In this document: positions 2,356 to 46,524 of the stretch, one piece after another
Position numbering within the stretch: position 1 is the stretch's first letter
Layout: each line of letters opens with the position of its first letter
UHGV virus genome: UHGV-1367765
DNA length: 50,578 nt
From: a virus
Strand: one strand, 5' to 3'
The notes under the pieces: generated by a model
What the model was told of the DNA's origin: nothing
The model's input: the letters and a program-made list of their open reading frames with translations, nothing else
Databases searched by the model: none
Program-made: the position numbers and the translations under genes

Positions 2356-2593
2356 TGTTGCCTCCGTGACTCTGCCTACATTCGCCCAGCTCCGTACACT
2401 CCAGCAGCAGAAAGCGCCGCGCCCCGTTCAGATCGCGCTGACGTTTCATCCGGTAACCGCGCTGATGACGGGATTGTCCTGGCTTGTATTGCTTCCAGCC
2501 TTCGCTTTTGTGGCTTTCACAATAGCCTGACGGGTCTGTGGTGGTATGGCGGCAGCCACGAACACGGCAGGCTTTTGGGATTCGTGATGGCAT
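2330..2593 (-). CDS. small Cys-rich (zinc-ribbon-like) protein
   Basis: Internal ATG (MPSRIPKACRVRGCRH...) preceded by GGAG; CxxxGC...C.SH pattern; function unknown. Confidence 0.3.
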   Translation of the reverse strand: MPSRIPKACRVRGCRHTTTDPSGYCESHKSEGWKQYKPGQSRHQRGYRMKRQRDLNGARRFLLLECTELGECRQSHGGNNDDFLFAR

Positions 2594-4784: not shown

Positions 4785-5837
4785 TTATTTCCCCACCAGT
4801 TCACTTACCTCTTTCACCGTCTGATTAAACCGCTCTGACTCAAGTTCAACACCTAACGCCCGACGCCCCAGCGCCATTGCTGCTTTTATTGTGGAACCGG
4901 ATCCCATAAAGAAATCAGCAACCAGATCACCAGGTCGACTACTGGCATTGATTATTTGCCGGAGCATATCCGCCGGTTTCTCGCACGGATGTTTACCCGG
5001 GTAGAACTGAACGGGCTTATGCGTCCAGACATCGGTATAAGGCACGGAGACTGATACGGAGAAATAGCGCCGGAGAGATTTAAACTCATCCAGCAATTCA
5101 GAATATTTGCGATTCAGTGAATCATAAGATGCCACCAGCTGGTGGTGTGGTTGTTCCAGTTGTTGTTCCTGAAACTTCTCTGCCGCTATACGGGAAAACA
5201 GTGCCTGTAACTTCCGATAGTCAGCCTCATTCGGCAACTGCCACTGACTGGCACCAAACCAGTGGGAAACCATATTTTTCTTACCTGTGGCTTCGGCAAT
5301 TTGTTTTGCCGTTATACCCAGTTCGGCACGAGCATCCCTGAAATACGATATCAGCGGTGCCATTATGTGCTGTTTGAGTTCCCTTTCTTTTGCCGCATAG
5401 CCGTCACTTTTGCCGCGATATGGCCCCTGGTAATGTTCAGCAAACAGAACGCGCTCTGTGGCAGGAAAATATGCGCGCAGACTTTCTTTATTACACCCAT
5501 TCCAACGTCCGGACGGCTTCGCCCAGATGATATGGTTAAGCACGTTGAAACGTTCACGCATCATGATCTCAATATCAGATGCCAGGCGATGCCCACAGAA
5601 CAGGTAAAGGCTTCCGGCAGGTTTTAACACCCGCCAGAACTGGGCCAGACAGTGGTCCAGCCACTTAAGGTAATCTTCGTCCCCTTTCCACTGATTGTCC
5701 CAGCCGTTGGGTTTCACCTTGAAGTACGGCGGATCGGTAACAATCAGGTCAATGGAATCATCAGGCAGGGACTGAATAAAATGCAGGCAATCAGCGTTGA
5801 TTAAATCAACACTGTTTATTTTTACAGTATTTTTCAT
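4785..5837 (-). CDS. DNA methyltransferase (N6-adenine/N4-cytosine class, DPPY motif)
   Basis: DLIVTDPPYF near the N-terminus and FFMGSGST near the C-terminus; no adjacent restriction enzyme. Confidence 0.8.
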   Translation of the reverse strand: MKNTVKINSVDLINADCLHFIQSLPDDSIDLIVTDPPYFKVKPNGWDNQWKGDEDYLKWLDHCLAQFWRVLKPAGSLYLFCGHRLASDIEIMMRERFNVLNHIIWAKPSGRWNGCNKESLRAYFPATERVLFAEHYQGPYRGKSDGYAAKERELKQHIMAPLISYFRDARAELGITAKQIAEATGKKNMVSHWFGASQWQLPNEADYRKLQALFSRIAAEKFQEQQLEQPHHQLVASYDSLNRKYSELLDEFKSLRRYFSVSVSVPYTDVWTHKPVQFYPGKHPCEKPADMLRQIINASSRPGDLVADFFMGSGSTIKAAMALGRRALGVELESERFNQTVKEVSELVGK

Positions 5838-6330: not shown

Positions 6331-6754
6331 AGCTGTGTGGCGAAGTAACCACTCTTAACAGCATAACCAATTTTTTACGTACGTAAACCTCTAAACAATA
6401 TTTGTGAGAATGATATCGAGTGTTCAAAACACCACCACAATCACATAAGGAAAAATAAACAAATAATCATTAAATAATTTCCGACGTTATTTTCAATGAG
6501 TTTAAATTAAAGAGATGATTTATAGAACACTTATTAATAACAACCTTTAATATAATTTAGCTACCAAATTTATTTTCTTTCAGAGAATAGTCATGTACAG
6601 CATGCAATAGAAAAAGTTCAGATAAAAATAGAGATCTAGATCACAATTTAAATAAGAATCTAAAACTTATATCTTGAATTAATCACATTGATTAGATGAA
6701 TATTTGTCGCGCAGGGCATCATTTTTTAATAAATGTTCAAAAAAAGGTCTCACG

Positions 6755-7852
6755 ATGAAAAAATTAACAGTGGCAATTTCTGCTGTAGCTGCATCAGTAC
6801 TGCTGGCGATGTCTGCTCAGGCAGCAGAGATTTATAATAAAGACAGTAACAAGCTGGATCTGTACGGAAAAGTTAATGCTAAGCACTACTTCTCCTCTAA
6901 CGAGGCAGATGATGGTGACACTACTTATGTTCGTCTGGGCTTCAAAGGCGAAACCCAAATCAACGATCAACTGACTGGTTTCGGTCAGTGGGAATACGAA
7001 TTCAAAGGCAACCGTGCTGAATCTCAGGGTTCTTCCAAAGATAAAACCCGTCTTGCCTTCGCTGGTCTGAAATTCGGTGACTACGGCTCCATCGATTATG
7101 GTCGTAACTACGGTGTAGCATACGACATCGGTGCGTGGACTGACGTACTGCCAGAATTCGGTGGTGATACCTGGACTCAAACCGACGTATTCATGACTCA
7201 GCGTGCAACTGGTGTTGCAACTTACCGTAATAACGACTTCTTTGGTCTGGTTGATGGCCTGAACTTTGCTGCTCAGTATCAGGGCAAAAATGACCGTAAC
7301 GATTTCGAGAACTACACCGAAGGTAACGGTGATGGCTTCGGTTTCTCTGCTACCTATGAATACGAAGGATTCGGCATTGGTGCGACCTATGCAAAATCTG
7401 ATCGTACCGACACTCAAGTCAATGCAGGGAAAGTTCTTCCTGAAGTATTTGCTTCCGGTAAAAATGCAGAAGTTTGGGCTGCAGGTCTGAAATATGACGC
7501 TAACAACATTTACCTGGCCACTACCTATTCTGAAACCCAGAATATGACGGTGTTTGCTGATCACTTCATTGCTAATAAAGCACAGAACTTCGAAGCTGTT
7601 GCACAATATCAGTTCGATTTCGGTCTGCGTCCGTCCGTTGCTTACCTGCATTCTAAAGGAAAAGACTTGGGTGTTTGGGGTGATCAGGACCTGGTTGAAT
7701 ATGTTGATGTAGGTGCAACTTATTACTTCAACAAAAACATGTCTACTTTCGTTGATTACAAAATCAACCTGCTTGACAAAAATGACTTCACTAAAGCACT
7801 CGGTGTAAGCACTGACAACATCGTTGCTGTAGGATTGGTTTACCAGTTCTAA
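6755..7852 (+). CDS. nmpC: outer-membrane porin, NmpC/Lc (OmpC/OmpF/PhoE family), apparently intact
   Basis: 365 aa with signal peptide [23 protein letters not shown] and porin motifs; near-identical to E. coli NmpC as recalled; sits between Q and the lysis genes on the opposite strand, as in DLP12. Confidence 0.9.
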
Positions 7853-10644: not shown

Positions 10645-10967
10645 ACTTTCAGGCCCCTCTCATGTAACCAGTGGGCTGCACGCAGCCTGCCGTTTTCCTC
10701 ACCGGCAAGCAGTGCGCGGATAATCCCGACCGCCTCGCTGTCGTCGTCCTTCACCGCGGTATGAAGCGTTATCCCCCGGGCCACGCCACGCTTTATCGTG
10801 ATGACGCCTTTTTTCTCCAGTGCACGAAGATGCTCTACCGCTGCATTCACTGAACGGTATCCCAGCATGGTTGCCACCTCCTGATTGGTTGGCGGAAAGC
10901 CACGCTCTTTCTGGTAAGAAATCAGCATATCCAGCACCTGCTGCTGGCATTGAGTTAACGTCGTCAT
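10641..10967 (-). CDS. LexA-like winged-helix DNA-binding protein without a peptidase domain
   Basis: TQCQQQVLDMLISYQKERGFPPTNQEVATMLGYRSVNAAVEHLRALEKKGVI resembles the LexA N-terminal domain; stop overlaps the rusA start (ATGA). Confidence 0.55.
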   Translation of the reverse strand: MTTLTQCQQQVLDMLISYQKERGFPPTNQEVATMLGYRSVNAAVEHLRALEKKGVITIKRGVARGITLHTAVKDDDSEAVGIIRALLAGEENGRLRAAHWLHERGLKV

Positions 10968-11455
10968 TACGCCCCCACGTAATTCCCTGACAGATACCAC
11001 TCATCACTCGATACAGCGCGCTTGCTGCTTTTCCGTAAACACTGCTCACGACGCGCCAGAAAATTGTTTCGTTCTGGCTGGGAGTGGCTTTCACGGAATG
11101 CCGCCATCCACACCGTTGCAGCACGACGGTATAAGCCCCTGGACTCCAGTTCTTCTGACTGGCGGGTCAGGCACAAAATCTCCCGCGGGTCGTTAGTGCC
11201 GACATAGAAATTGCGCACAGGTCTGGTTTCACGAACTGGTTGCGGTTCCGGTTCCTGCGCTCTCTCAGTCAGGCGCGGGAAATGTCTGCGTGTATCTCCT
11301 TCACAACGGTGAGCCACACGCCCACTCTGACGTAACTTGCTTGCTGACTGCAGAACGCGCTGCCGTGAGTAACCTGCAAAAGCATCCGCAATGTCTCCGG
11401 AAGTACATCCCGGATGGGCTTCAATGAATTTCTGAACTTCATTCAAAAGACTCAT
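10967..11455 (-). CDS. PerC-family transcriptional regulator-like protein
   Basis: C-terminal LESRGLYRRAATVWMAAF...RREQCL resembles the PerC motif; translationally coupled (TAATG) to the LexA-like gene. Confidence 0.5.
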   Translation of the reverse strand: MSLLNEVQKFIEAHPGCTSGDIADAFAGYSRQRVLQSASKLRQSGRVAHRCEGDTRRHFPRLTERAQEPEPQPVRETRPVRNFYVGTNDPREILCLTRQSEELESRGLYRRAATVWMAAFRESHSQPERNNFLARREQCLRKSSKRAVSSDEWYLSGNYVGA

Positions 11456-11457
11456 GA

Positions 11458-12180
11458 TCACCCCCTGAATCCTGCCGGGATCTGGCTGTAGTCCACGTTG
11501 TCGTAACTGGATTTGAAGTACGGGTCTTCGCGTTTTTCGGTGTACGTGCTGACGGACGGTGATAAGCGCAGGGAAAGCTCATCCCATTTTTCCCGCAACT
11601 TCGACGGGCTGAGCACGTTACGGCACCAGAACGGATCGCGGCTGACGCGGCTGTACATCTCGCAGATTTGTTTGTGAGTACGACCATCCTGCACACACAT
11701 CAGGCGAATTTCGTTTGCCCAGGCTGTCCAGTTCGGTTCTTTGGGACGAACCACCTCGCCGTCACATTCGGCGGCTTGCTCGTACAGGGCGATGATTTTT
11801 TTCCAGAGCCACTGTGCGCAGGTCAAATCATCCTGCGTTCCCCACTGGCGCTTTTTAGGGCTGAATACAACCGCATCAGGATGGCGAGTTAAAAAATCCT
11901 GTTCATCCGTCTGCGTGTCCGGTTGCGAAGCGTCCGGACGAGAAGGTTTTTTATCTGACGGATCATGTTTTGATTTTACTGACGGATCCCCGCCAGATTC
12001 TGACGGGTGAAAACCCGCTTTTTTGCCAGATTTCGACGCATCAAATTTTGACGGGTCAGATTTTGATGCGTCAGATTTTGACGGGTCAGAATCTGACAGT
12101 TGAGAAAATGCCGCTGCCTGAAGCTTCGCAACGTTAAGCTGATAAACATTCGACGCATTGCGGTTATCGGAGTTACGCAA
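11458..12180 (-). pseudogene. 5'-truncated replication-initiator (O-like) remnant with a repeat-encoded Asp/Ser/Lys-rich segment
   Basis: No in-frame ATG near the 5' end (listed start is TTG); iteron-like DNA repeats encode DPSKSDASKSDPSKFDASKS; abuts a divergent plus-strand gene. Confidence 0.35.
11950..12105. repeat. iteron-like direct repeats (about 8 copies of TTTTGACGGGTCAGA-like units)
   Basis: Visible tandem units, each with a small TGAC..GTCA dyad, at roughly 16-17 bp spacing. Confidence 0.5.
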
Positions 12181-12543
12181 ATGCGCATGAATGTTTTCGA
12201 AATGGAAGGGTTTCTTCGTGGGAGATGTGTACCGCGAGATCTGAAAGTGAATGAAACAGATGCTGAATACCTGGTGCGTAAATTCGATGCGCTTGAAGCT
12301 AAATGTGCAGCACAGGAAAACAAAGTAATACCAGTGTCAACTGAACTGCCACCAGCAAATGAAAGTGTTTTGTTATTCGATGCTAACGGAGAAGGCTGGC
12401 TAATTGGCTGGCGTTCTCTCTGGTACACCTGGGGACAAAAAGAAACCGGAGAATGGCAGTGGACATTTCAGGTCGGGAGCCTTGAAAACGTCAATATCAC
12501 TCACTGGGCAGTAATGCCAAAAGCACCGGAGGCTGGAGCATAA
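12181..12543 (+). CDS. DUF551-like prophage protein
   Basis: ATG with GGAG RBS; Trp-rich C-terminus ending NITHWAVMPKAP resembles the DUF551 signature. Confidence 0.45.
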   Translation: MRMNVFEMEGFLRGRCVPRDLKVNETDAEYLVRKFDALEAKCAAQENKVIPVSTELPPANESVLLFDANGEGWLIGWRSLWYTWGQKETGEWQWTFQVGSLENVNITHWAVMPKAPEAGA

Positions 12544-12848
12544 TGACCACTTTTACCGACAAAGAACTGATTAAAGAAATTAAAGAGCGTATCAGCAGCC
12601 TTGACGTGCGAGACGATATTGAGCGCCGTGCTTATGAAATCGCACTCCTATCTCTGGAAGTAGAACCAGATGAACGCGAAGCTTATGAATTATTCATGGA
12701 AAAGCGTTTCGGTGACTTAGTAGATCGTCGGAGAGCAAAAAACGGCGATAACGAATACATGGCATGGGATATGACTCTCGGTTGGATCGTCTGGCAGCAA
12801 CGAGCAGGTATCCATTTTTCAACAATGTCACAACAAGAGGTGAAATAA
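12543..12848 (+). CDS. hypothetical protein (101 aa)
   Basis: ATG overlaps the upstream stop (TAATG); continuous with xis and int on the same strand. Confidence 0.45.
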   Translation: MTTFTDKELIKEIKERISSLDVRDDIERRAYEIALLSLEVEPDEREAYELFMEKRFGDLVDRRRAKNGDNEYMAWDMTLGWIVWQQRAGIHFSTMSQQEVK

Positions 12849-13198
12849 TGGAGCCATACAGCCTCACACTCGATGAGGCCTGTCATTTTCTTAAGATATC
12901 CAGACCGACTGCCATTAACTGGATACGCACAGGGCGTCTTCAGGCAACACGCAAAGATCCCACTAAGAATAAATCTCCTTACCTCACAACACGACAAGCC
13001 TGCATTGCGGCTCTTCAGTCTCCGCTGCATACTGTCCAGGTGAGCGCGGGTGATGGCATAACAGAGGAAAGAAAATGTCACTCTTCCGCAGAGGTGAAAT
13101 ATGGTACGCCAGTTTCACATTGCCGAACGGTAAAAGATTTAAACAGTCTCTTGGAACAAAGGACAAAAGGCAGGCGACAGAACTCCATGACAAGCTAA
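12848..13198 (+). CDS. xis: excisionase-like DNA-binding protein
   Basis: HTH-like N-terminus ([26 protein letters not shown]); immediately upstream of and overlapping int. Confidence 0.5.
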
Positions 13199-14238
13199 AG
13201 GCTGAAGCATGGCGGGTCAGCAAACTTGGTGAAATACCTGATATAACGTTCGAGGAAGCGTGTGTCAGGTGGCTTGAAGAGAAAGCACATAAAAAATCAC
13301 TGGACGATGACAAAAGCCGGATCGGATTCTGGCTTCAACATTTCGCAGGAATGCAACTAAGAGACATTACTGAATCAAAAATTTATTCAGCAATGCAGAA
13401 AATGACGAACCGGCGTCATGAGGAAAACTGGAAACTCAGGGCAGAAGCATGCAGAAAAAAAGGGAAACCTGTTCCAGAATACACGCCAAAACCAGCGTCC
13501 GTTGCAACGAAGGCTACGCATCTTTCATTTATAAAGGCCCTACTAAGAGCCGCAGAGCGTGAATGGAAAATGCTGGATAAGGCACCAATTATTAAAGTGC
13601 CTCAACCAAAGAATAAACGGATCCGCTGGCTGGAGCCCCATGAAGCACAAAGGCTGATTGATGAATGTCCGGAGCCATTAAAGTCTGTTGTTGAATTTGC
13701 ACTGGCAACAGGCTTAAGACGCTCGAACATCATCAACCTTGAATGGCAACAAATAGACATGCAGCGCCGGGTGGCATGGATAAACCCGGAAGAGAGTAAA
13801 TCAAACCGCGCAATTGGCGTTGCGCTGAATGATACTGCATGTCGCGTTTTGAAAAAACAAATCGGGAATCATCACCGTTGGGTATTTGTGTACAAGGAAA
13901 GCTGTACCAAACCAGACGGAACGAAAGCGCCAACAGTAAGGAAGATGCGGTATGACGCAAACACAGCCTGGAAAGCGGCGCTGAGACGGGCTGGTATTGA
14001 TGATTTCAGATTTCACGACTTGAGACACACCTGGGCAAGTTGGCTGGTTCAAGCCGGAGTCCCGTTGTCAGTGTTACAGGAAATGGGAGGCTGGGAGTCT
14101 ATCGAAATGGTTCGTCGATATGCTCACCTTGCACCTAATCACCTTACCGAACACGCACGGCAAATAGACTCGATCCTGAACCCATCGGTCCCAAATTTGT
14201 CCCAGTCAAAAAATAAGGAAGGTACTAATGATGTGTAA
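13075..14238 (+). CDS. int: tyrosine integrase (lambdoid Int family)
   Basis: 387 aa with the R..HxxR..Y catalytic pattern ([10 protein letters not shown]...VRRYAH); very similar to E. coli lambdoid prophage integrases as recalled; 3' end faces the att core. Confidence 0.9.
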
Positions 14239-14252
14239 CTTATTGATTTAAA

Positions 14253-14298
14253 TGGTGCCGATAATAGGAGTCGAACCTACGACCTTCGCATTACGAAT
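14253..14298 (-). other. att core: 46-nt copy of the 3' end of tRNA-Thr (thrW-type), not a complete tRNA
   Basis: Minus strand reads ...ATTCGTAATGCGAAGGTCGTAGGTTCGACTCCTATTATCGGCACCA; similarity to the tRNA stops upstream of this; 14 bp after the int stop. Confidence 0.7.
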
Positions 14299-38258: not shown

Positions 38259-38334
38259 TGGTGCTGGTTAACGGACTTGAACCGCTACCCATTCGCTTAC
38301 AAGGCGACCGCTCTACCATTGGAGCTAAACCAGC
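38259..38334 (-). tRNA. tRNA-Thr (anticodon UGU inferred)
   Basis: Hand-folded cloverleaf: 7-bp acceptor stem, D-stem GCTC/GAGC, anticodon loop CTTGTAA, T-loop TTCAAGT, 3' ACCA. Confidence 0.55.
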
Positions 38335-38339
38335 ATGTT

Positions 38340-38414
38340 TGGCGGGACAGCGTGGACTCGAACCACGATAAGAAGGTTAACAGCCTTCCGTAATGACCTT
38401 TATACGACTGACCC
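38340..38414 (-). tRNA. tRNA-like gene, anticodon GUU (Asn) inferred; possibly degenerate
   Basis: Cloverleaf with anticodon loop CTGTTAA, T-arm CGTGG-TTCGAGT-CCACG, 3' GCCA, but a U-U mismatch in the acceptor stem and a 3-bp D-stem. Confidence 0.4.
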
Positions 38415-38416
38415 AA

Positions 38417-38500
38417 ATAAAAAAAGCCACCGTTGCAACTTAAGAGTCACTAACGGCAGCTTATGCGAATAGTGTTGCTCATTTGCTCAATGATGTCAAC
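38417..38500 (-). promoter_or_regulatory. candidate late promoter pR' and tR' terminator downstream of Q
   Basis: TTGACA hexamer followed by a hairpin and T-run on the minus strand between Q and the tRNAs; element positions approximate. Confidence 0.35.
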
Positions 38501-38505
38501 ACGTT

Positions 38506-38994
38506 CTATGCTACATGTTTAATTTTCTCTACACGTTTCCGGTTTTTAAACGCACCATCCAGAACAGGGTAAATCATAAACAACGAGGAATTGAGGATTT
38601 CGTCAACTTCCCGGCGACAGGTTGCGAGCGATGGTTTTTGAATGCGCCCGCCGCCCCGGCATAACATCTTGCGAGGTCTTGCGACGCGATGATAGTAAGA
38701 TGCAATGGCGTGCTTGGAAGAGCCGTGGGCGTAGTAACTGAGGAGGATGCCAAAGGCTTTCTTGTCAATGTACATGACGGAATCGACGACCTGAGAAATC
38801 AACATTCCATCATCATCATTACACATTGGCCTTGTCATAACTCTTCCCGGCTCTACGCTCTCCATGAACTTCGCTATTACGCTGCTCATGCGCTTTTCCA
38901 GACGACCTGAATAAACCCATGCGCCCCACAGTTCAAGCCATCCATTCAGCCAATCGTGCTGCTCTTTGGTGAGGTTTAGTTCTCTTATGCTCAT
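38506..38994 (-). CDS. late-gene antiterminator Q (Q82/21 family)
   Basis: WLELWGAWVY motif shared with the prophage A Q; cysteine cluster; directly upstream of the late promoter region. Confidence 0.65.
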   Translation of the reverse strand: MSIRELNLTKEQHDWLNGWLELWGAWVYSGRLEKRMSSVIAKFMESVEPGRVMTRPMCNDDDGMLISQVVDSVMYIDKKAFGILLSYYAHGSSKHAIASYYHRVARPRKMLCRGGGRIQKPSLATCRREVDEILNSSLFMIYPVLDGAFKNRKRVEKIKHVA

Positions 38995-39179
38995 CGTCTT
39001 CCCCTCTTGCCCTGTTTGACCATCAGGACGCCGTTAACTATTACGTGACGCTCGCCTTTGCTGTCTCGGTTGTACTTGAGCACTGTTCCTCTTGCGCAGG
39101 AAAGCATCCTCGCCACTTCGGTCTGATTTCCTCGTGTCTGGATAAGAAGCTCTGGTATCGTTTGAATTGTGGCGTTCAT
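38991..39179 (-). CDS. ninH: NinH
   Basis: TIPELLIQTRGNQTEVARMLSCARGTVLKY matches lambda NinH as recalled. Confidence 0.75.
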   Translation of the reverse strand: MNATIQTIPELLIQTRGNQTEVARMLSCARGTVLKYNRDSKGERHVIVNGVLMVKQGKRGRR

Positions 39180-39538
39180 ACGTTCTCCAGTTCGGTGATT
39201 TTTATTCCAAGCCGTCCGCCTGGTACTTTCACACCACGAATTACGTGAATGTCATCGAATTGCTCGTCGTCTTCCGCAAATCCGGCGTGGATAAGGGAGT
39301 CGAGTAAACCCTTCAGGATGTTATCGAGGTCGCGGCGGCGGGAGTCTGGAACGTCTGCGATGACTTTGATGCGGAGTCGTGATTTGGTGAAAATGTCTAA
39401 CTTAAGTTGGCGGATGATTTGCTGAACGTCTTTTCGGTATTTCTGGCCTTTATCGCTGATGTAGTATTGACTTCCCCGTCTTCGCCAGTAGGTATTCACC
39501 GACGGCGGGTATGGAAGCACAAACTGATATTCGTTCAT
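39176..39538 (-). CDS. rusA: Holliday-junction resolvase RusA
   Basis: LPYPPSVNTYW and RRRDLDN motifs. Confidence 0.75.
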   Translation of the reverse strand: MNEYQFVLPYPPSVNTYWRRRGSQYYISDKGQKYRKDVQQIIRQLKLDIFTKSRLRIKVIADVPDSRRRDLDNILKGLLDSLIHAGFAEDDEQFDDIHVIRGVKVPGGRLGIKITELENV

Positions 39539-39813
39539 TGGACAAACACCCTCCCATTGTTAACCAATTTTTTAAGGGTAAGCACAATGGCCCGATCCAT
39601 TTCAGCCCTTCGCTCTTCCCTGCTCATATCTCTCCCATTATCAATTCTTGAATGACAATCAACACATAGCGCAGCAGTAAGGCAATCATCTACTTTAATC
39701 CCAACCCCCTTCCCTTCATTTCTGTGAGCGGCCTGAACTCCGTATCTTCCGCAAAGAACGCAAAATTCAATATCCCTGACTGCCTGAAGCCATTTTTTGC
39801 TTCTAAACATCAA
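39535..39813 (-). CDS. DUF1364 (YbcO-like) putative nuclease
   Basis: Cys/His pattern CVLCGRY...AAHRN...CVDCHSRIDNG typical of YbcO-like proteins. Confidence 0.5.
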   Translation of the reverse strand: MMFRSKKWLQAVRDIEFCVLCGRYGVQAAHRNEGKGVGIKVDDCLTAALCVDCHSRIDNGRDMSREERRAEMDRAIVLTLKKLVNNGRVFVQ

Positions 39814-40312
39814 TCCCCTCCAAAAAACGTCGGTACGCTGATTTGTTTTTTATGTTGCACACTGTCTGCGCACAAACACCAAATTCTTTGGCTATATCTC
39901 TGTATTTGCCTTTTGATTTATATATTGATTTCACTTGTTCTGGCGTTAGTTTGCAGAAGTGATGATTAAACCCATGAACAAGCAATCCGGAATCAAATCC
40001 ATGTTTCGCATTTTCTGTTCGCGTTACCCACTCAAGATTTTCAACTTTATTATTAAGTTTATTTCCATCCTTGTGATTAACTTCCGGTTTGCCATCTGGG
40101 TTATCAATAAATACTTCTGCAACAATTCTGTGAACCATTTTATATGATGGTCTTTTCCCGCCACCTGGATACAGACCGACAAATGCATATCCTCCTGGTT
40201 TAATGCCATGAGATAATTTTTTTGATTTACGGCATGAAATGATGTCTCCATTTTCAGTTACTTTATATATACCCTCAAAGCCGGGGATATCTTTTTCTTT
40301 AACATCACTCAT
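39803..40312 (-). CDS. HNH homing-endonuclease-like protein (NUMOD4 + HNH + C-terminal HTH)
   Basis: IPGFEGIYKVTENGDI (NUMOD4-like), VNHKDGNKLNNKVENLEWVTRTEN (HNH); AT-rich island. Confidence 0.65.
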   Translation of the reverse strand: MSDVKEKDIPGFEGIYKVTENGDIISCRKSKKLSHGIKPGGYAFVGLYPGGGKRPSYKMVHRIVAEVFIDNPDGKPEVNHKDGNKLNNKVENLEWVTRTENAKHGFDSGLLVHGFNHHFCKLTPEQVKSIYKSKGKYRDIAKEFGVCAQTVCNIKNKSAYRRFLEGIDV

Positions 40313-40481
40313 CGTCTTCTTCCTCGTACATTGAGCTATTCGGATCGCTCATCAGTTCTGCGCAGCAGTGCTCACACACGTGAACTTCCAGCACATGCAG
40401 CTTCTGACCGCAGTTAGCGCACGTTAAAGCTCGCTCGACGCTTTCTTTCTGGTATTGAAGGGTTTGTGATGGGCTAAGCAT
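40305..40481 (-). CDS. ninF: NinF (58 aa; not in the supplied ORF track)
   Basis: Own translation [44 protein letters not shown]... matches lambda NinF as recalled; coordinates from manual reading. Confidence 0.55.
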   Translation of the reverse strand: MLSPSQTLQYQKESVERALTCANCGQKLHVLEVHVCEHCCAELMSDPNSSMYEEEDDE

Positions 40482-40863
40482 TATTGACGTCCTGCATCAT
40501 GAGGAAGACAATCATGGCGGCACGGAGTGGATTGTCATATGCGACACCAACATTCGGTCCGGCATCATCAAACAATTCCCTTGCGTTGTCTGTAGCGCAC
40601 GGCATTGAGGGATTGTCTAAAATTATGCTGATGTTGTTTTCAGTGATAATCGGCCATGCGTCTGCTGGGTTTGCGCATGGGTTAAAGGATCCGCGCTCAA
40701 CCTCTACTTCAACTGCGTCTCCGTTTACAATGTCTCCCTCAAATGAGATAAACACCATCGCGCCATTCTCACCTTCTTTGTAATCCGGTGATCCGTTATG
40801 AATGGCTTCGAATACCGCCACGTTAATTTCAAAATCACTTAACTGTGAATAATCCATTGTCAT
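40474..40863 (-). CDS. hypothetical nin-region protein (NinX-like?)
   Basis: Start taken at internal ATG ([12 protein letters not shown]); family uncertain. Confidence 0.35.
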
Positions 40864-41036
40864 TTCCTCGCACGATGTCTTAGCCACCGGATATCCCACA
40901 GGTGAGCCGTGTAGTTGAAGGTTTTTACGTCAGATTCTTTTGGGATTGGCTTGCGTTTATTTCTGGAGCGTTTCGTTGGAAGGTATTTGCAGTTTTCGCA
41001 GATGATGTCGGTGATACTTCGTCGCTGTCGCCTCAT
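40860..41036 (-). CDS. ninE: NinE
   Basis: [23 protein letters not shown]...[18 protein letters not shown] matches lambda NinE; AGGAGG RBS. Confidence 0.75.
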
Positions 41037-41560
41037 GCCGCCCTCCTGACGCCCTGCCCGATCGCCATCAATGCCGCTTTGGATACGGTAGTAAACATCC
41101 GTCGAGGACTGATGAGCGGGCGCCAAATCAGCAGCATTGAGCCTTTGCTGTTTCCCTTCTTCTCCAGCCCCGTCGATGGTTCGATAAAATTAATCCGTCC
41201 ATCAGTGATGATGCGAACTTCGTCAACGCTCTCCAGAGCCTTGCTGAACCATCCGACTGACATATCCTCTGGCACAAGCATAACTACCGTCTGTCGCTGT
41301 TGTATGCACTGCTCAGCGGCTTTTTCCACCCACGGCCTGATATTGCTGTACGGTTGGTTATTCCAGATTGCACCGTGGCTTACCCACTCAGAATTGAGCG
41401 CGTCGTCGGCCTCAGTTAGCCAGTGAGCACACAGAGCATTTTTGTCGCTCGCTGCCGAATCCAGCCAGAATCCAAACTCAATATCCAGTGCATCAAAAAG
41501 CCAAAGCGGCGTTTGCCAGCAGTCCTTGTCGTGTGCTGGCGTATTTGATTTGATAGTCAT
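41033..41560 (-). CDS. phage DNA N6-adenine methyltransferase (Dam-type)
   Basis: [12 protein letters not shown]...NQPYSN motif pattern of lambdoid-phage Dam methylases. Confidence 0.7.
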
Positions 41561-41997
41561 GCAGCCCGATCTCCCCATCTCGCTTTCCACTCCAGAGCCA
41601 GTCTCGCTTCGTCTGACCACTTAACGCCACGCTCTGTACCGAATGCCTGTATAAGCTCTAATAGCTCCGCAAATTCGCTTACACGCATCCTGCTGGTTGA
41701 CTGGCCTATTACCACAAAGCCATTCCCGGCAAGGTTAGGAACAACATCCTGCTGCTTTAATGCTGCGGTAAACACACACTTCCAGCTTTCTGCATCCAGC
41801 CAGCGACCATGCCATTCAACCTGACGAGAGACGTCACCTAAGCAGGCCCATAGCTTCCTGTTTTGGTCTAAGCTGCGGTTGCGTTCCTGAATGGTTACTA
41901 CGATTGGTTTGGTTGGGTCTGGAAGGATTTGCTGTACTGCGTGAATAGCGTTTTGCTGATGTGCTGGAGATCGAATTTCAAAGGTTAGTTTTTTCAT
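41557..41997 (-). CDS. ninB: recombination protein NinB
   Basis: 146 aa, MKKLTFEIRSPAHQQNAIHAVQQILPDPTKPIVVTIQERNRSLDQN matches lambda NinB. Confidence 0.85.
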   Translation of the reverse strand: MKKLTFEIRSPAHQQNAIHAVQQILPDPTKPIVVTIQERNRSLDQNRKLWACLGDVSRQVEWHGRWLDAESWKCVFTAALKQQDVVPNLAGNGFVVIGQSTSRMRVSEFAELLELIQAFGTERGVKWSDEARLALEWKARWGDRAA

Positions 41998-42190
41998 GAC
42001 TTCCCTCTCTAACAGATTTCAGGTTATTCCACTCCGTTACCGCACTGCGATAATTCGCGGCCGCCACAGCAGCGTGGTTAGCGCAGTAGATTTGGCACCC
42101 GTTCTCCATGTCGAATATTGTCGGTGATTTTCCGCATTTACATTTTTTGGCACGCGGTGCGTCTGAACACATTCCGTTAACGGTGTCCAT
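41978..42190 (-). CDS. small Cys-rich hypothetical protein
   Basis: 70 aa with a CxC...C...C pattern; between the helicase and ninB. Confidence 0.35.
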   Translation of the reverse strand: MDTVNGMCSDAPRAKKCKCGKSPTIFDMENGCQIYCANHAAVAAANYRSAVTEWNNLKSVREGSHEKTNL

Positions 42191-42274
42191 CAGGATCCCC
42201 CTCGCTCTTAATCCAATAAAAAAGGGCTACTGTGTAAATAGCCCCTGTTATTATCTCAGTGATGTAGATGGTCA

Positions 42275-43711
42275 TCAGAATCCTCCTTTCTTCTTGGACT
42301 GCGGTTCCTCGCGTTCACGTCGGCGCATTTCAGCAGACTGTTGGTCTGTGTCATAAATAGCGCCATTTGCCTGAATGCAATACACCGTGCCGGTATTGCC
42401 ATGACGATTGAGACGAAGGATTAGTTCGGTTTCACCAGGTGGAACACTGTCATCAAAAGCGCCTTCACGATGGATCCCAACCCAATAATCGCAATCCTGT
42501 TCAATCTGCCCTGTATCTCGTGAGTCACTTGGTAATGGGCGTTTATTGGTTCGGCTTTCCAGTGCGCGGTTAAGCTGCGTCAGAAGCACAACAACGCAAT
42601 CAAGCTCTTTGGCAAGGTTCTTCAGTCCTTTGGTGATCATGCCGTAAGCAAGGTCGTTGCGATCGGCCTTCTCAGCGGTCATTAGTGTCAGGTAATCGAC
42701 CAGAATCATGCCAACACATCCTTTTTCTCGCTTGATTCGACGGCTTTCGCTGACGATTTGAGCCAGAGATAATCCCGGCGTGTCGTCGATGTAAAGCAGG
42801 TCGATTTCACTCAAGCGATTGGCTGTTTCGATCGCCCTGTTGAAGTCACCATCGTAATCACCCTGATAGCCGTCATCAGCGTCATTTGTCGCCGGAAGGT
42901 AAAAAATATTCGGGTTAACACCAGACTTCTGCCCTACCAGTTTTTCCAGTATCTGATCACCTGGCATTTCAAGGCTGAACATCAGAGCGGGCTTTTTCTC
43001 ATGCACTGCGCAGTTGATTGCCATCTGGCTGTATAGCGTCGTTTTCCCCATCTTAGGGCGAGCGCCAATGACGAACAGAGAGCCTTTCACCAGACCTTTC
43101 GGTGACAGCATCCTGTCCAGCGATGGTATTCCTGTGCTCATTCCTCGTTGTTCACCTGACGGGTCAAATCGCTTCTCAAGGTCGCTAACCCAGTCTTCCA
43201 TGACCTCACCAAATGAGCGAAGGCCGCGACGCGATCCGGTTTTTGCATGGTCTGTCAGTTGCGTGAAAATCGACTGAATAGCTTCGTACTTCTGTGTTGC
43301 AGTCATTCCGTTGCGGGAATAGAGCAATTCCGTCGCTTCAGTCATGCGGTTGATGGCGTAGCGTTCCATTGCGGTTTCACGAACCTGCATTGCATAGGCA
43401 ACGATGTTTGCTGCGCTTGGCGTGTTCTTTGCGATCTCAGCGATATAAGCAAAACCGCCAACAGACGCCGTTAACGATTTACGCTCCAGTTCATCGAAAA
43501 GCGTCAGGCCATCTACTGGCTTTTGCTCCCGGTGCATTCTGGTTATTTCTTCGAAAAGGATTTTGTGTGGTCGGCTGTAAAATGAGTCAGGCTTCAGCAT
43601 CGCCAGAACCTTCTGGACGCGCTCACTGCTGTCATCATCCAGAAGCAATCCACCAATCACCGCCTGCTCTGCCTCGATGCTATGGGGCGGCGCATAAAAA
43701 TTATCGGTCAT
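42275..43711 (-). CDS. replicative DNA helicase (DnaB-like)
   Basis: Walker A GARPKMGKT and DnaB-type N-terminal domain; downstream of the O-like initiator. Confidence 0.8.
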   Translation of the reverse strand: MTDNFYAPPHSIEAEQAVIGGLLLDDDSSERVQKVLAMLKPDSFYSRPHKILFEEITRMHREQKPVDGLTLFDELERKSLTASVGGFAYIAEIAKNTPSAANIVAYAMQVRETAMERYAINRMTEATELLYSRNGMTATQKYEAIQSIFTQLTDHAKTGSRRGLRSFGEVMEDWVSDLEKRFDPSGEQRGMSTGIPSLDRMLSPKGLVKGSLFVIGARPKMGKTTLYSQMAINCAVHEKKPALMFSLEMPGDQILEKLVGQKSGVNPNIFYLPATNDADDGYQGDYDGDFNRAIETANRLSEIDLLYIDDTPGLSLAQIVSESRRIKREKGCVGMILVDYLTLMTAEKADRNDLAYGMITKGLKNLAKELDCVVVLLTQLNRALESRTNKRPLPSDSRDTGQIEQDCDYWVGIHREGAFDDSVPPGETELILRLNRHGNTGTVYCIQANGAIYDTDQQSAEMRRREREEPQSKKKGGF

Positions 43712-44591
43712 CGTGTTCACCCTCACGAACTTTCAGGTAGGTATTATCGTTAAGCAGGAAATCAAATCCCTTTTTGTGCCAGACGGTTCCGCGCTGATGG
43801 TTTGGGCGCTCTTCGAACATCCATCGGCAATTTTCGCCTACGTAGCTCAAATAATTTCTCCAGTCCTGCATCGTGAAACCATGCCCGTCAAGCTGTCGGG
43901 TTATCACTCCGGCTTTGCGCCAGAACGTTCGGATCTGGTTTTTACGCTTGTCATTCAGTGCGCGGATTCTTGGCGCTTCAGGAAGGATTTCGTGGTAAGC
44001 ATCGACAACATCCTGACAGCTAACGGAAGGTTTTTTCTTGTCAGACTTTTTGTCTGCTGTGGCACTCTCTAATACGTCAGTATTAGAGATATTATTTATA
44101 TTATTGTTTATGGACAACCGTTGGACAACCGTTGGACAATCTCCGCTGAGAGCCGCGCCATTACTGGTGTTTGCGTTGGACAACCGTTGGACAACCGTTG
44201 GACAATTTTTTGCCTGAAAATCGTCATATTTAACGATTGTAAACAGGCTAAATTTCTTCCCCATCGAGCAAATATTAAGCATACCTTTCGACTCAAAAGT
44301 CCGTAATAAGCTCCGAACTTTGTTGTCGGGGATGAATGTTTCTCTGACCAGCGACGGGCGTCCAGTTATCATCTGACCGCGATCAACAGTTATCGGACCG
44401 ATATCCGTATTGACGACAGTAGATTCGTGATTAGCCTTGAGGATTAAGTGAAGCCAAAGATGTACTGCCTGAGAGTCCTTATAGAGCCTGCTGTCCATAA
44501 ACTGGCGGTGTATAGAGACATACCCCATACTGGATGCCTCCTGATGTTGTACAGGGTTATGCCTGTAATCAGCTAATTTAACGACGCCCAT
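43701..44591 (-). CDS. replication initiator (O-like) with internal origin iterons
   Basis: Central repeat-encoded segment (CPTVVQRLS... twice); sits immediately upstream of the helicase as in lambdoid phages. Confidence 0.7.
   Translation of the reverse strand: MGVVKLADYRHNPVQHQEASSMGYVSIHRQFMDSRLYKDSQAVHLWLHLILKANHESTVVNTDIGPITVDRGQMITGRPSLVRETFIPDNKVRSLLRTFESKGMLNICSMGKKFSLFTIVKYDDFQAKNCPTVVQRLSNANTSNGAALSGDCPTVVQRLSINNNINNISNTDVLESATADKKSDKKKPSVSCQDVVDAYHEILPEAPRIRALNDKRKNQIRTFWRKAGVITRQLDGHGFTMQDWRNYLSYVGENCRWMFEERPNHQRGTVWHKKGFDFLLNDNTYLKVREGEHDDR
44110..44205. repeat. origin iterons: two clusters of tandem CCGTTGGACAA repeats inside the O-like gene
   Basis: Direct repeats GGACAACCGTTGGACAACCGTTGGACAAT occur twice about 50 bp apart. 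Confidence 0.6.
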
Positions 44592-44739
44592 GTTTCACTC
44601 CTGCTTTGGCTAGTCTGTAAACACCAACAAGGCGCTCTGCGAACGCCCTGTTATTTGCTGCGGCTACCACTAATCCCTCAGGTGAATCAGGGTGTCGAAT
44701 CTCTTCTTTTTCCTGGTATTTCTTACGACGTTTTGTCAT
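44578..44739 (-). CDS. small basic protein (53 aa; not in the supplied ORF track)
   Basis: ATG with CAGGAG RBS between cII and O; overlaps the O start by 14 nt. Confidence 0.35.
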   Translation of the reverse strand: MTKRRKKYQEKEEIRHPDSPEGLVVAAANNRAFAERLVGVYRLAKAGVKHGRR

Positions 44740-44773
44740 AATTACTCCTGTGGATTGATCCAGTCTTTCTACA

Positions 44774-45052
44774 TTAGGCCTCGAAGAATTCGCCGTTCTT
44801 CGGGGCTTTTTCTTTTGTCAGCATTCTGGCTACTTGCTTAGCCAGTTCCGCCAACTCCTCGTCTTCAACACCCCATTCAAGAACAGCCAGAAGCATTCCC
44901 ATTTTGGGGATGAAGCTGTCTTTCCATCGCGAAATTTGCGATTCATTAATCCCTAACGCGTCGGCCACCTTTCGCTGACCACGTACAGCAATTCGATTCA
45001 GGATGTTGCTTGTAATTGCATTCGCTTTCTTGCGAGTACTTGTAAGTTGCAT
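44774..45052 (-). CDS. cII: CII-like transcriptional activator
   Basis: GINESQISRWKDSFIPKMGMLLAVLEWGVED matches the lambda CII core. Confidence 0.75.
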   Translation of the reverse strand: MQLTSTRKKANAITSNILNRIAVRGQRKVADALGINESQISRWKDSFIPKMGMLLAVLEWGVEDEELAELAKQVARMLTKEKAPKNGEFFEA

Positions 45053-45121
45053 ATGTAAGTATTTCCTTAGATAACAATTGATTGAATGTATGCAAATAAA
45101 TGCATACACCATAGGTGTGGT

Positions 45122-45153
45122 TTAATTTGATGCCCTTTTTCAGGGCTGGGATG
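45122..45153 (-). promoter_or_regulatory. nutR (boxA CGCTCTTAC plus boxB GCCCTGAAAAAGGGC)
   Basis: Canonical lambda nutR boxA and boxB on the minus strand directly downstream of cro. Confidence 0.65.
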
Positions 45154-45171
45154 TGTAAGAGCGGGAATGTC

Positions 45172-46524
<1,353 letters not shown>

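What the first reader, a model, noticed from the sequence alone, without database searches (positions are those of the whole stretch)
11458..12180. Truncated replication-initiator remnant with iteron-like repeats in prophage A
The minus-strand ORF has no in-frame ATG near its 5' end and abuts a divergent plus-strand gene, suggesting a deletion junction. Inside it, 11950-12105 holds about eight tandem TTTTGACGGGTCAGA-like units, each a small dyad, which encode a DPSKSD-type peptide repeat. Lambdoid O genes carry their origin iterons internally in the same way, so this looks like a relic origin.
Basis: partly seen in the sequence, partly recalled or inferred. Interest (0 to 1): 0.42.

Follow-up and report, generated by a model that had tools for sequence, protein, structure and literature searches.

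The report
Broken phage replication gene with origin repeats
This is the tail end of a phage replication-initiator gene that still carries the phage's origin repeats; it matches the known E. coli K-12 pseudogene yfdO, but its break point is a recurrent deletion hot spot and its repeats are the published binding sites of the host regulator SrsR.

Summary
Window 11458-12166 (minus strand) is codons 79-313 of an SfII/SfIV-type phage "O" initiator gene, 97-99% identical to intact phage copies. The N-terminal winged-helix domain and the whole immunity region are deleted. It corresponds to yfdO/oweS of K-12 prophage CPS-53, which NCBI's pipeline already marks as "missing N-terminus".

The repeats are real: seven units at 11947-12090. 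Four lines of evidence point to DNA-level origin iterons rather than a peptide repeat:
- Synonymous codons are almost fixed there in 68 diverse homologues.
- One copy sits out of frame in phiP27.
- The repeats swap together with the N-domain between alleles.
- Distant O-like genes, with lambda as positive control, carry their own dyad repeats at the same place.

No cognate O is in the window, so the origin is inferred to be dead.

Two additions:
- Four of the units are exactly the published "SrsR boxes", the strongest genomic binding site of the host regulator SrsR/YgfI in K-12. That paper does not mention iterons.
- The truncation point is a TA inside GGTAACC. At least 20 independent deletion joints use it, including e14 oweE'-'aaaE and CPS-53 yfdO; five control windows gave none. 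The mechanism is unknown.

The core finding is ordinary; the hot spot is not.

The parts
11458..12166 (-). 3' three-quarters (codons ~79-313) of an SfII/SfIV-type phage replication initiator 'O' gene. It is a pseudogene equivalent to K-12 yfdO/oweS. It keeps the linker/iteron region and the lambda-O-like C-terminal domain.
12163..12166 (.). Deletion junction. The 4-nt microhomology GTTA (TAAC in O orientation) joins O nt 234 to the 3' end of yfdR / start of yfdS. The crossover TA is at 12165-12166. This is the recurrent hot-spot TA of GGG-TA-ACC.
12167..12180 (-). Non-O sequence (the yfdR end and the yfdS upstream region). It only mechanically extends the ORF to a TTG.
12031..12090 (-). Iteron copies 1-4 at a strict 15-bp period: TCTGACCCGTCAAAA / TCTGACGCATCAAAA / TCTGACCCGTCAAAA / TTTGATGCGTCGAAA. 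Read on the + strand (12041-12096) they are the four 'SrsR boxes' TCAAATTTTGA, TCAGATTTTGA, TCAGATTTTGA and TCAGAATCTGA.
11947..12013 (-). Iteron copies 5-7 spaced 21-24 bp apart: TTTTCACCCGTCAGAATCTGG, GGGGATCCGTCAGTAAAATCA and AAACATGATCCGTCAGATAAAAAA. In 73 homologues this block has almost invariant synonymous sites.
11458..11690 (-). Distal part of the lambda-O-like C-terminal domain plus the conserved C-terminal tail (..YDNVDYSQIPAGFRG). The stop codon overlaps the start of the next gene (TGATCATG).
10967..11455 (-). yfdN-like PerC-family gene, next in the same transcription unit.
12181..12543 (+). Divergent yfdS-like gene (DUF551, PHROG 583), the first gene of the retained early-left segment (yfdS-yfdT-xis-int).
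12543..14238 (+). yfdT-like gene (12543-12848), excisionase (12848-13198) and SfII-type integrase (13075-14238). Together they form the other flank of the deletion.

Best explanation
The region is the dead replication module of a defective SfII/SfIV-like prophage. A deletion running from the early-left operon into the O gene removed three things: the immunity region (cI-cro-cII), the promoter, and the first 78 codons of O, which encode the winged-helix DNA-binding domain.

What remains is the linker-coding part, which carries the phage's origin iterons, followed by a lambda-O-like C-terminal domain.

In the intact phage (inferred by analogy with lambda), dimers of the N-terminal domain bind the TGAC/GTCA dyads in the middle of their own gene and nucleate replication there. 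In this window no protein can do that, so the array does not act as an origin. It could be bound again only by a cognate O supplied by a related phage.

In E. coli K-12 the same array is shown to be the strongest binding site of the host LysR-type regulator SrsR (YgfI), which activates transcription of the remnant operon. With 43 of 44 box bases identical, the same use is likely here (inferred).

The deletion itself crossed over at a TA dinucleotide in GGGTAACC. That TA is a recurrent break point of this gene family.
For: Identity and truncation:
- establish what the gene is and what is missing.
- The same truncation is annotated as a pseudogene in other genomes.
- The window, K-12 yfdO and SfII O are identical through the array apart from 1-3 SNPs.

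The repeats are DNA-level elements:
- In 68 distinct homologues from different Enterobacterales, the major-codon fraction is 0.90 in codons 101-150 (64% of columns at or above 0.9). In codons 1-95 of the same genes it is 0.54 (1% of columns).
- The block TTT GAC/CAC CCG TCA/CCA GAA TCT GGN GGG GAT CCG TCA GTA keeps rare codons (TCA, GTA, GGG) while the amino acids change.
- phiP27 and a Citrobacter prophage carry a copy in another reading frame, read as VLTLQNL / VFTRQNL.
- The dyad centre is flipped (TGACGGGTCA) 34 times.

The N-domain and the repeats form one specificity module:
- phiNP, YeP3 and phiP27 share the N-domain and the repeats but have unrelated C-domains.
- The EC11 allele has the identical C-domain but a different N-domain and different repeats with 23-bp spacing. 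The mosaic boundary lies just after the repeats.

General architecture:
- Four distant HTH_36 O-like genes each have 3-4 dyad repeats of their own at the same gene position with 21-24-bp spacing.
- The same tool recovers the four known lambda iterons.
- Lambdoid origins lie in the middle of O (PMC7466680).

No cognate initiator in the window:
- Prophage B has a P22-type initiator and helicase that are unrelated to SfII O.
- No N-terminal O fragment is present in the window.

SrsR:
- PMC9181523 reports a 66-bp footprint, four boxes and roughly 10-fold activation of yfdONMLK.
- The box sequences match the window.
Against: - No experiment shows that SfII-type O binds these repeats or that replication starts there.
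- There is no clear AT-rich unwinding element next to the array. The maximum is about 0.70 A+T over 30 bp, and it overlaps units 6-7.
- The first four units are spaced 15 bp apart, not the 20-24 bp seen in lambda and the other families.
- SfII and SfIV have no P, DnaC or helicase gene beside O, so the downstream mechanism cannot simply be copied from lambda.
- Strong synonymous conservation would also be produced by any other cis element, such as an operator or an RNA element.
- SrsR binding was shown for K-12, not for this sequence context. Here yfdS lies upstream, not yfdP.
Confidence: 0.8

Rival explanations
1. The repeats are only a low-complexity peptide linker (a DPSKS repeat) between two protein domains. 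On this reading the DNA repetition is a by-product of coding and slippage.
For: - The units are in frame and encode a Ser/Asp/Lys/Pro-rich linker.
- The peptide pattern is also recognisable across genera.
- The number of 15-bp units varies between alleles, as expected for slippage.
Against: - Synonymous sites are nearly invariant while amino acids vary (D/H, S/P, P/A/T/G).
- An out-of-frame copy is conserved in two diverged genes.
- Alleles with another N-domain carry different repeats that encode different peptides at the same place.
- A host protein footprints the DNA.
Confidence: 0.04
2. The repeats are primarily a transcription-factor operator. They could be SrsR boxes, or an autoregulatory operator for O, controlling expression of the early-right or remnant operon, and not a replication origin.
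For: - SrsR binds the homologous K-12 array most strongly of all genomic sites and activates yfdONMLK and yfdPQ.
- Deleting yfdO, yfdK or yfdS lowers H2O2 survival.
- No AT-rich unwinding element was found.
Against: - The array is an ancestral feature of intact phage O genes in many genera, and it co-varies with the phage initiator's DNA-binding domain, not with the host.
- Its position and dyad architecture match lambda-type origins.
- SrsR use therefore looks secondary. The two roles are not mutually exclusive.
Confidence: 0.12
3. The remnant is still a working gene. An N-terminally truncated O protein (as K-12 yfdO is annotated) would be made and have a host-beneficial or anti-phage role. 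The repeats would then be its 5' leader or promoter.
For: - The 717-nt reading frame is fully open and 97-99% identical to intact genes.
- K-12 yfdO mRNA is detected, is SrsR-dependent, and its deletion has a phenotype.
- A lambda-O-type C-domain could in principle titrate a partner protein.
Against: - There is no start codon near the 5' end, and the consensus scan found no promoter-like site directed into it.
- An open frame is expected anyway if the deletion is recent or the sequence is refreshed by recombination with intact prophages. 1,576 of 5,426 complete E. coli genomes carry a full copy.
- Polar effects on yfdK were not excluded in the cited work.
Confidence: 0.15

Closest known systems
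Bacteriophage lambda O gene with ori-lambda inside it (also phi80 gene 15 and the Stx-phage O genes)
   Same: - Two-domain initiator whose gene carries several dyad-symmetric iterons in the linker-coding middle. The array lies at nt ~300-450 of 942 here, against ~349-435 of 900 in lambda.
- The C-terminal domain is homologous: 39% identity, E 1e-17.
- The N-domain and the iterons behave as one exchangeable specificity module.
- The gene sits after cro-cII in the early-right operon.
   Different: - The N-terminal domain is an HTH_36/MarR-like winged helix, unrelated in sequence to the lambda O N-domain.
- The iteron sequence is different (TGAC-NN-GTCA core), and four units have 15-bp spacing.
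- There is no obvious AT-rich tract.
- There is no P gene.
- In the window the DNA-binding domain is deleted.
E. coli K-12 yfdO (oweS), the CPS-53/KplE1 prophage pseudogene 'defective replication protein O'
   Same: - The same gene family at 99% nucleotide identity.
- The same first retained nucleotide, O nt 234.
- It is followed by yfdN and faces a divergent early-left gene.
   Different: - The partner of the deletion differs. In K-12 it is 18 bp upstream of yfdP. Here it is the end of yfdR / start of yfdS, so yfdP, yfdQ and yfdR are absent.
- The prophage here carries an SfII-type int-xis pair next to a thrW fragment, whereas CPS-53 has intS at argW.
- It keeps lexA-like, rusA, kilA-N, DUF968 and Q genes that K-12 lost.
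SrsR (YgfI) box array of the K-12 'yfdO/yfdP spacer' (Int J Mol Sci 2022, PMC9181523)
   Same: Four 11-bp boxes at 15-bp spacing. Three are identical to K-12 and the fourth differs by one base (TCAGAATCTGA against TCAGAGTCTGA).
   Different: - That paper treats the boxes as a promoter-region operator and does not mention iterons or an origin (0 occurrences of 'iteron').
- Here they are shown to be conserved parts of intact phage O genes.
- The upstream divergent gene differs, so the regulated left-hand target would be yfdS-yfdT-xis-int and not yfdPQ.
Ectopic or decoy phage origins that inhibit the cognate phage (lambda ori plasmids; PMC4488673 and PMC3349717)
   Same: An origin copy separated from a functional initiator gene could still bind an incoming phage's O protein.
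   Different: Those effects were shown with multicopy plasmids. This is a single chromosomal copy, and no interference has been tested.

Membership tests
Lambdoid O-type initiator gene with internal origin | C-terminal domain homologous to the lambda O C-terminal domain | tested here: met
   tblastn gives 39% identity over residues 166-277 to lambda, 933W and other Stx-phage O proteins (E 1e-17), and 35% to phi80 gene 15. PHROG 391/277 'replication initiation O-like' also match.
Lambdoid O-type initiator gene with internal origin | N-terminal sequence-specific DNA-binding domain present | tested here: not met
   It is deleted in the window: homology starts at codon 78/79. It is present in the intact relatives as HTH_36 at aa 23-70. 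The window therefore holds a remnant, not a functional member.
Lambdoid O-type initiator gene with internal origin | Three or more dyad-symmetric repeats (iterons) in the middle of the gene | tested here: met
   There are 7 units at 11947-12090. The lambda positive control was recovered by the same tool.
Lambdoid O-type initiator gene with internal origin | Iterons selected as DNA (not only as codons) and co-varying with the N-domain | tested here: met
   Synonymous-site conservation is 0.90 against 0.54. There is an out-of-frame copy. The module is exchanged as a unit in phiNP, YeP3, phiP27 and EC11.
Lambdoid O-type initiator gene with internal origin | AT-rich unwinding tract next to the iterons | tested here: inconclusive
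   No tract like lambda's was found. The local maximum is 0.67-0.70 A+T and overlaps units 6-7.
Lambdoid O-type initiator gene with internal origin | Initiator binds the iterons and replication starts there | not testable with these tools
   This needs EMSA or footprinting and a replication assay.
K-12 yfdO/oweS-type pseudogene | Same gene, truncated at O nt 234, followed by yfdN | tested here: met
K-12 yfdO/oweS-type pseudogene | Same deletion event (same partner sequence, CPS-53 context at argW) | tested here: not met
   The partner and the prophage context differ. This is an independent deletion at the same TA.
SrsR-box array | Several TCAGATTTTGC-like boxes within about 66 bp | tested here: met
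   Four boxes lie at 12041-12096 on the + strand. They match the boxes in Table 1 of PMC9181523.
SrsR-box array | SrsR binding and SrsR-dependent transcription at this locus | not testable with these tools
   It has been shown only for K-12.
Purely coding peptide repeat | Conservation explained by the amino-acid sequence alone | tested here: not met

The most novel reading that the evidence does not exclude
The TA inside GGGTAACC of SfII-type O genes (window 12165-12166) may be a site-specific break or recombination point.

At least 20 independent prophage deletions begin or end exactly there. They include the two classical K-12 cases, e14 oweE'-'aaaE and CPS-53 yfdO. All 12 partner sites for which the intact sequence could be recovered have a TA at the crossover, usually within a G-N-TA-N-C context.

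This pattern points to fixed 3' ends that finish in ..TA on both strands. Such ends could come from an unidentified sequence-specific nuclease or recombinase, or from an origin-linked nick. That would make the replication-initiator gene a programmed weak point through which these prophages become cryptic.

The surviving half keeps an iteron array that the host has taken over as its strongest SrsR site.
Probability: 0.45. Interest if true: 0.75.

Novelty: new member of a known kind. Interest (0 to 1): 0.5.

Why it matters
The truncated O gene with internal iterons is textbook lambdoid architecture in a defective prophage, and its K-12 counterpart is already annotated. By itself it matters little. 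Three things make the locus worth noting.

1. It defines the likely origin of a very common E. coli/Shigella phage group. SfII, SfIV, SfV-like, e14 and CPS-53 relatives occur in about half of complete E. coli genomes. I found no described origin for this group in the searchable literature.

2. It reinterprets a published regulatory site. The highest-affinity genomic target of the stress regulator SrsR is a phage origin iteron array. This raises the question of whether a host LysR-type regulator was recruited to a relic origin, or instead normally meets phage origins.

3. The break point is not random. One TA dinucleotide accounts for every truncation of this gene that I could find. That makes how these prophages become defective an experimentally tractable question.

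Tried and rejected
1. Pfam and NCBIfam give no hit for the remnant itself. Only PHROGs and tblastn identified it.

2. The first IMG/VR locus search returned only 99-100% identical copies, which were useless for divergence analysis. They were replaced by phage-database hits and a one-genome-per-species scan.

3. Literature searches for a described SfII or SfV origin found nothing relevant. A search for oweE/aaaE found only gene-name mentions.

4. The AT-rich unwinding element was not found.

5. A cognate initiator elsewhere in the window was rejected. Prophage B has a P22-type module and there is no N-terminal O fragment.

6. Hot-spot mechanisms considered:
- (a) Cutting by a GGTNACC (BstEII-type) restriction enzyme. 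This was attractive because the OHT76 and e14 partners also have GGTAACC. But junctions such as GGGTA|CCG are one base shorter than ligation of 5-nt overhangs predicts. In addition, another joint in this prophage creates a GGTTACC site. It was rejected as the general explanation.
- (b) A Pin/Hin-type invertase pseudo-site. From memory of the consensus (AAACC-NN-GGTTT) the site does not fit. This was not tested further.
- (c) A hairpin or cruciform at the site. The fold is not better than shuffled sequence, with z-scores between -0.1 and -1.2.
- (d) IS-mediated adjacent deletion followed by excision. No IS sits at the joints, except that an IS66-type transposase lies near one of them, L189.
- (e) Selection for a particular end point. 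This cannot give single-nucleotide precision from both sides.
- (f) Ascertainment bias of the pattern search. This was addressed with five control windows that gave 0 joints and with an unbiased 120-nt BLAST.

Full report
**1. What is at the coordinates**

The minus-strand ORF 11458-12180 (240 aa) is real, but its TTG start is only mechanical. Pfam and NCBIfam do not recognise it. PHROGs does: it matches positions 75-298 of the 298-position family 391, 'replication initiation O-like' (E 2e-96).

tblastn against phage genomes gives 97-99% identity over residues 2-240 to the 313-aa 'O' proteins of Shigella phages SfII and SfIV and of several E. coli phages. The full SfII protein has three parts:
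- an N-terminal HTH_36/MarR-like winged helix (aa 23-70);
- a Ser/Asp/Lys/Pro-rich repeat linker (about aa 100-160);
- a C-terminal domain that is 39% identical to the C-terminal domain of bona fide lambda O (E 1e-17) and similar to phi80 gene 15.

Nucleotide alignment shows that homology to SfII O begins at window 12166, which is O nt 234. The 14 bases from 12167 to 12180 are not O sequence. So the window holds codons about 79-313, and the DNA-binding domain is gone.

**2. The junction and the context**

On the other side of 12163-12166 lies the SfII early-left segment in divergent orientation:
- a yfdS-like DUF551 gene (ATG at 12181);
- a yfdT-like gene;
- xis;
- an SfII-type integrase.

Compared with SfII, everything from the interior of the early-left operon to O codon 78 is missing. 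That covers the rest of the left operon, cI, cro, cII and orf40. No N-terminal O fragment or immunity region is found anywhere in the window.

Downstream of the remnant the operon continues as in SfII, except that the dam gene is absent: yfdN/PerC-like, LexA-like, RusA, KilA-N and DUF968.

NCBI's pipeline annotates the equivalent remnant as a pseudogene 'missing N-terminus' in E. coli OHT76-1 and in K-12. The K-12 copy is yfdO (oweS) of prophage CPS-53/KplE1. It starts at the same nucleotide (query 234-942) and is identical to the window through the repeat region except for single bases.

**3. The repeats**

Tandem Repeats Finder reports 4.3 copies of a 15-nt unit at 12027-12090. The repeat finder adds three looser copies. 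In coding orientation the units are:
- TCTGACCCGTCAAAA
- TCTGACGCATCAAAA
- TCTGACCCGTCAAAA
- TTTGATGCGTCGAAA
- TTTTCACCCGTCAGAATCTGG
- GGGGATCCGTCAGTAAAATCA
- AAACATGATCCGTCAGATAAAAAA

Their coordinates were verified. The core is a dyad, TGAC-NN-GTCA.

The clustering is far beyond chance. There are 14 near-matches in the window against 2.85 expected, and 0 of 100 shuffles reach 14. In SfII, 4 of the 6 GAYCCGTCA sites in 41 kb lie within 124 bp.

**4. Are they iterons or just codons?**

Five independent observations bear on this.

(a) Synonymous sites. I collected 80 loci encoding relatives of the N-domain from one genome per species. In 68 distinct genes, the fraction of sequences using the commonest codon for the commonest amino acid averages 0.54 in codons 1-95, and only 1% of columns reach 0.9. 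In codons 101-150 it averages 0.90, and 64% of columns reach 0.9. Rare codons are fixed while residues vary between D and H or between S and P: Ser TCA in 61 of 61, Val GTA in 72 of 72, Gly GGG in 58 of 69. This shows selection acting on the DNA itself.

(b) An out-of-frame copy. In phiP27 the motif TTTGACCCTTCAGAWTCTGG occurs twice in different frames, read as FDPSDSG and as VLTLQNL. A Citrobacter prophage keeps the same out-of-frame copy.

(c) A flipped centre. The dyad centre is inverted (TGACGGGTCA, read as D-G-S) 34 times. At the DNA level that is the same site; at the protein level it is a Pro-to-Gly change.

(d) Module exchange. phiNP, YeP3 and phiP27 share the N-domain and the repeats but have unrelated C-domains. 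Conversely, the E. coli EC11 allele has a C-domain identical from 'SRPDASQPD' onward but a different N-domain. At the same place it has different repeats, CATCnGGTCAAAGTGACCnGATG, about six copies spaced 23 bp apart. The mosaic boundary falls immediately after the repeats, at O nt 443.

(e) General architecture. Four distant HTH_36 O-like genes were examined: Stx2a_F403, Klebsiella phage RothC, Vibrio phage D67 and Aggregatibacter phage S1249. Each has 3-4 dyad repeats of its own, spaced 21-24 bp apart, right after the N-domain coding part. The same tool run on lambda O returns exactly the four known ori-lambda iterons.

Lambdoid origins are known to sit in the middle of O (PMC7466680).
- No AT-rich tract like lambda's is seen.
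- The first four units are 15 bp apart.
- SfII and SfIV encode no P, DnaC or helicase next to O.

Binding and firing are inferred, not shown.

**5. Can it work here?**

The window has no cognate initiator. The second prophage (about 14.3-47 kb) has a P22-type initiator-like gene and a DnaB-type helicase that show no similarity to SfII O.

So the array is inert as an origin unless a related phage supplies O. Such phages are common: 1,576 of 5,426 complete E. coli genomes carry a full-length copy of this gene, and single genomes carry up to four matching places. Multicopy lambda origins are known to block lambda (PMC4488673). Whether a single relic copy does anything similar is untested.

**6. 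A published function for the same repeats**

A genomic SELEX study found the strongest peak of the LysR-type regulator SrsR (YgfI) in the K-12 'yfdO/yfdP spacer'. The peak intensity was 1206, against 288 or less for the other listed peaks visible in the retrieved excerpt of the paper's Table 1 (only part of the table was read). A 66-bp DNase I footprint contains four 11-bp boxes: TCAaATTTTGa, TCAGATTTTGa, TCAGATTTTGa and TCAGAgTcTGa.

SrsR activates yfdONMLK about 10-fold (PMC9181523). Deletion of yfdO, yfdK or yfdS lowers H2O2 survival (PMC3105296).

These boxes are iteron units 4-1 read on the other strand. In the window they lie at 12041-12096 with a single base difference. The 'spacer' exists only because K-12 yfdO is annotated from an internal start.

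The paper does not mention iterons: the word occurs 0 times in it. Because the array is ancestral in intact phage genes (point 4), SrsR use looks secondary.

**7. The break point is recurrent**

This went beyond the original finding but concerns its 'deletion junction'. Three joints share the first retained O nucleotide and have different partners:
- the window, joined to the yfdR end / yfdS start;
- OHT76-1, joined to the yfdR interior;
- K-12 CPS-53, joined 18 bp upstream of yfdP.

Conversely, e14-type prophages keep O nt 1-233 fused to the interior of the large terminase gene. This is the oweE'-'aaaE fusion, formerly called ymfN. Another strain fuses O nt 1-237 to a tail-fibre fragment.

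Exact-pattern scans of IMG/VR asked for O sequence that diverges within 6 nt of the site. They found 11 distinct left-retaining joints, one 1-nt deletion, and 4 distinct right-retaining joints. The same design at five control positions of the gene found no joints, only SNP alleles.

An unbiased 120-nt BLAST across the site in 5,426 complete E. coli genomes gave 2,495 places, with 1,585 records intact. All 13 partial rows of a 60-row spread break at query positions 56-67, which is the site. Three of those rows were examined. Two added new partners, a baseplate gene and a second position in kilA-N. The third, in a tail-fibre gene, has the same joint sequence as IMG/VR locus L206.

In total I count at least 20 distinct joints. 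All but the e14 joint fit exchange at the TA of GGG-TA-ACC:
- Left-retaining ends finish ..GGGTA.
- Right-retaining ends start TAACC...
- All 12 partner sites whose intact sequence I could recover have TA at the crossover.
- G at position -2 occurs in 10 of 12 partners, and C at +2 in 9 of 12.
- The similarity is strongest on the partner side that is replaced by O sequence.

No joint was identified as an inversion: all six left-retaining partners whose location could be mapped lie in direct orientation.

The pattern fits fixed 3' ends finishing in TA on both strands that then prime or anneal at short homologies. It does not fit ordinary two-sided resection of a break.

I could not identify the cause:
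- A BstEII-type restriction cut does not fit the junction arithmetic.
- There is no significant hairpin.
- No IS element is present at the joints.

The GGTAACC sequence is present in 80 of 80 E. coli alleles but in only 19 of 75 homologues from other genera.

The window joint could have arisen directly. It could also have arisen from an OHT76-type joint, which regenerates GGTAACC, by a second event at the same TA.

**8. Verdict**

The finding as written is correct and, in kind, ordinary. It is a lambdoid-style initiator pseudogene that still carries its origin repeats, and it is a close relative of K-12 yfdO.

New here are three things:
- the comparative case that the repeats are the origin iterons of the SfII/e14/CPS-53 phage group;
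- their identity with the SrsR boxes;
- the deletion hot spot at the truncation point, whose mechanism is open.

Noticed in passing
window 12163-12166; also L002, L163, L174, L175, L177-L210 and L297-L299: The TA in GGGTAACC of the O gene (O nt 233-234) is a deletion hot spot. At least 20 distinct joints use it, including K-12 e14 oweE'-'aaaE and CPS-53 yfdO, against 0 joints in five control windows. All 12 recoverable partner sites have TA at the crossover.
   Followed up: yes
window 12041-12096 (+ strand): Four iteron units are identical, apart from one base, to the four published SrsR (YgfI) boxes of the K-12 'yfdO/yfdP spacer', the strongest SrsR site in the K-12 genome. The source paper does not mention iterons.
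   Followed up: yes
window 14253-14296: Right after the integrase there is only the 3' part of tRNA-Thr (thrW-like att core). No whole tRNA was found. Tail-fibre genes of a second prophage follow directly, so two prophages appear to sit in tandem at one att site.
   Followed up: partly
window 38259-46123: Prophage B carries a P22-type replication module (initiator-like gene 43701-44591 and DnaB-type helicase 42275-43726), a Dam methylase, an HNH_3/NUMOD4 homing-endonuclease-like gene (39803-40312), Q, and tRNA-Thr and tRNA-Asn (38259-38414).
   Followed up: partly
window 2452-2458 and 1538-1543: There are two further deletion joints of prophage A relative to SfII. The joint SfII 41264|6491 also crosses at a TA and creates a GGTTACC site. 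The joint SfII 7408|16996 uses GAA/ACC microhomology and removes most tail genes.
   Followed up: partly
window 6704-7852 and 4785-5837: Prophage A has a phage-borne general porin gene (Porin_1, nmpC-like position between Q and lysis) and an N6/N4 DNA methylase.
   Followed up: no
window 12004-12017 (+ strand): A terminator-like hairpin (CGGGTGAAAACCCG plus a T-run) lies antisense to O, between iteron units 4 and 5. It is made by the conserved GGGTTTTCACCCG of unit 5.
   Followed up: no
window 11458-11520; L083, L084: A short C-terminal tail (..F/Y.DVDYS..P..GFR) is kept on O-like proteins even when the C-terminal domain is replaced by an unrelated one (phiNP, Klebsiella phages). It may be a docking peptide for a host factor. 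SfII and SfIV have no P, DnaC or helicase gene beside O.
   Followed up: no
L164 and L086 (phiP27): phiP27-type alleles carry a longer N-domain/iteron spacer and an out-of-frame iteron. The phiP27 initiator is followed by a DnaC-like gene, unlike SfII.
   Followed up: partly
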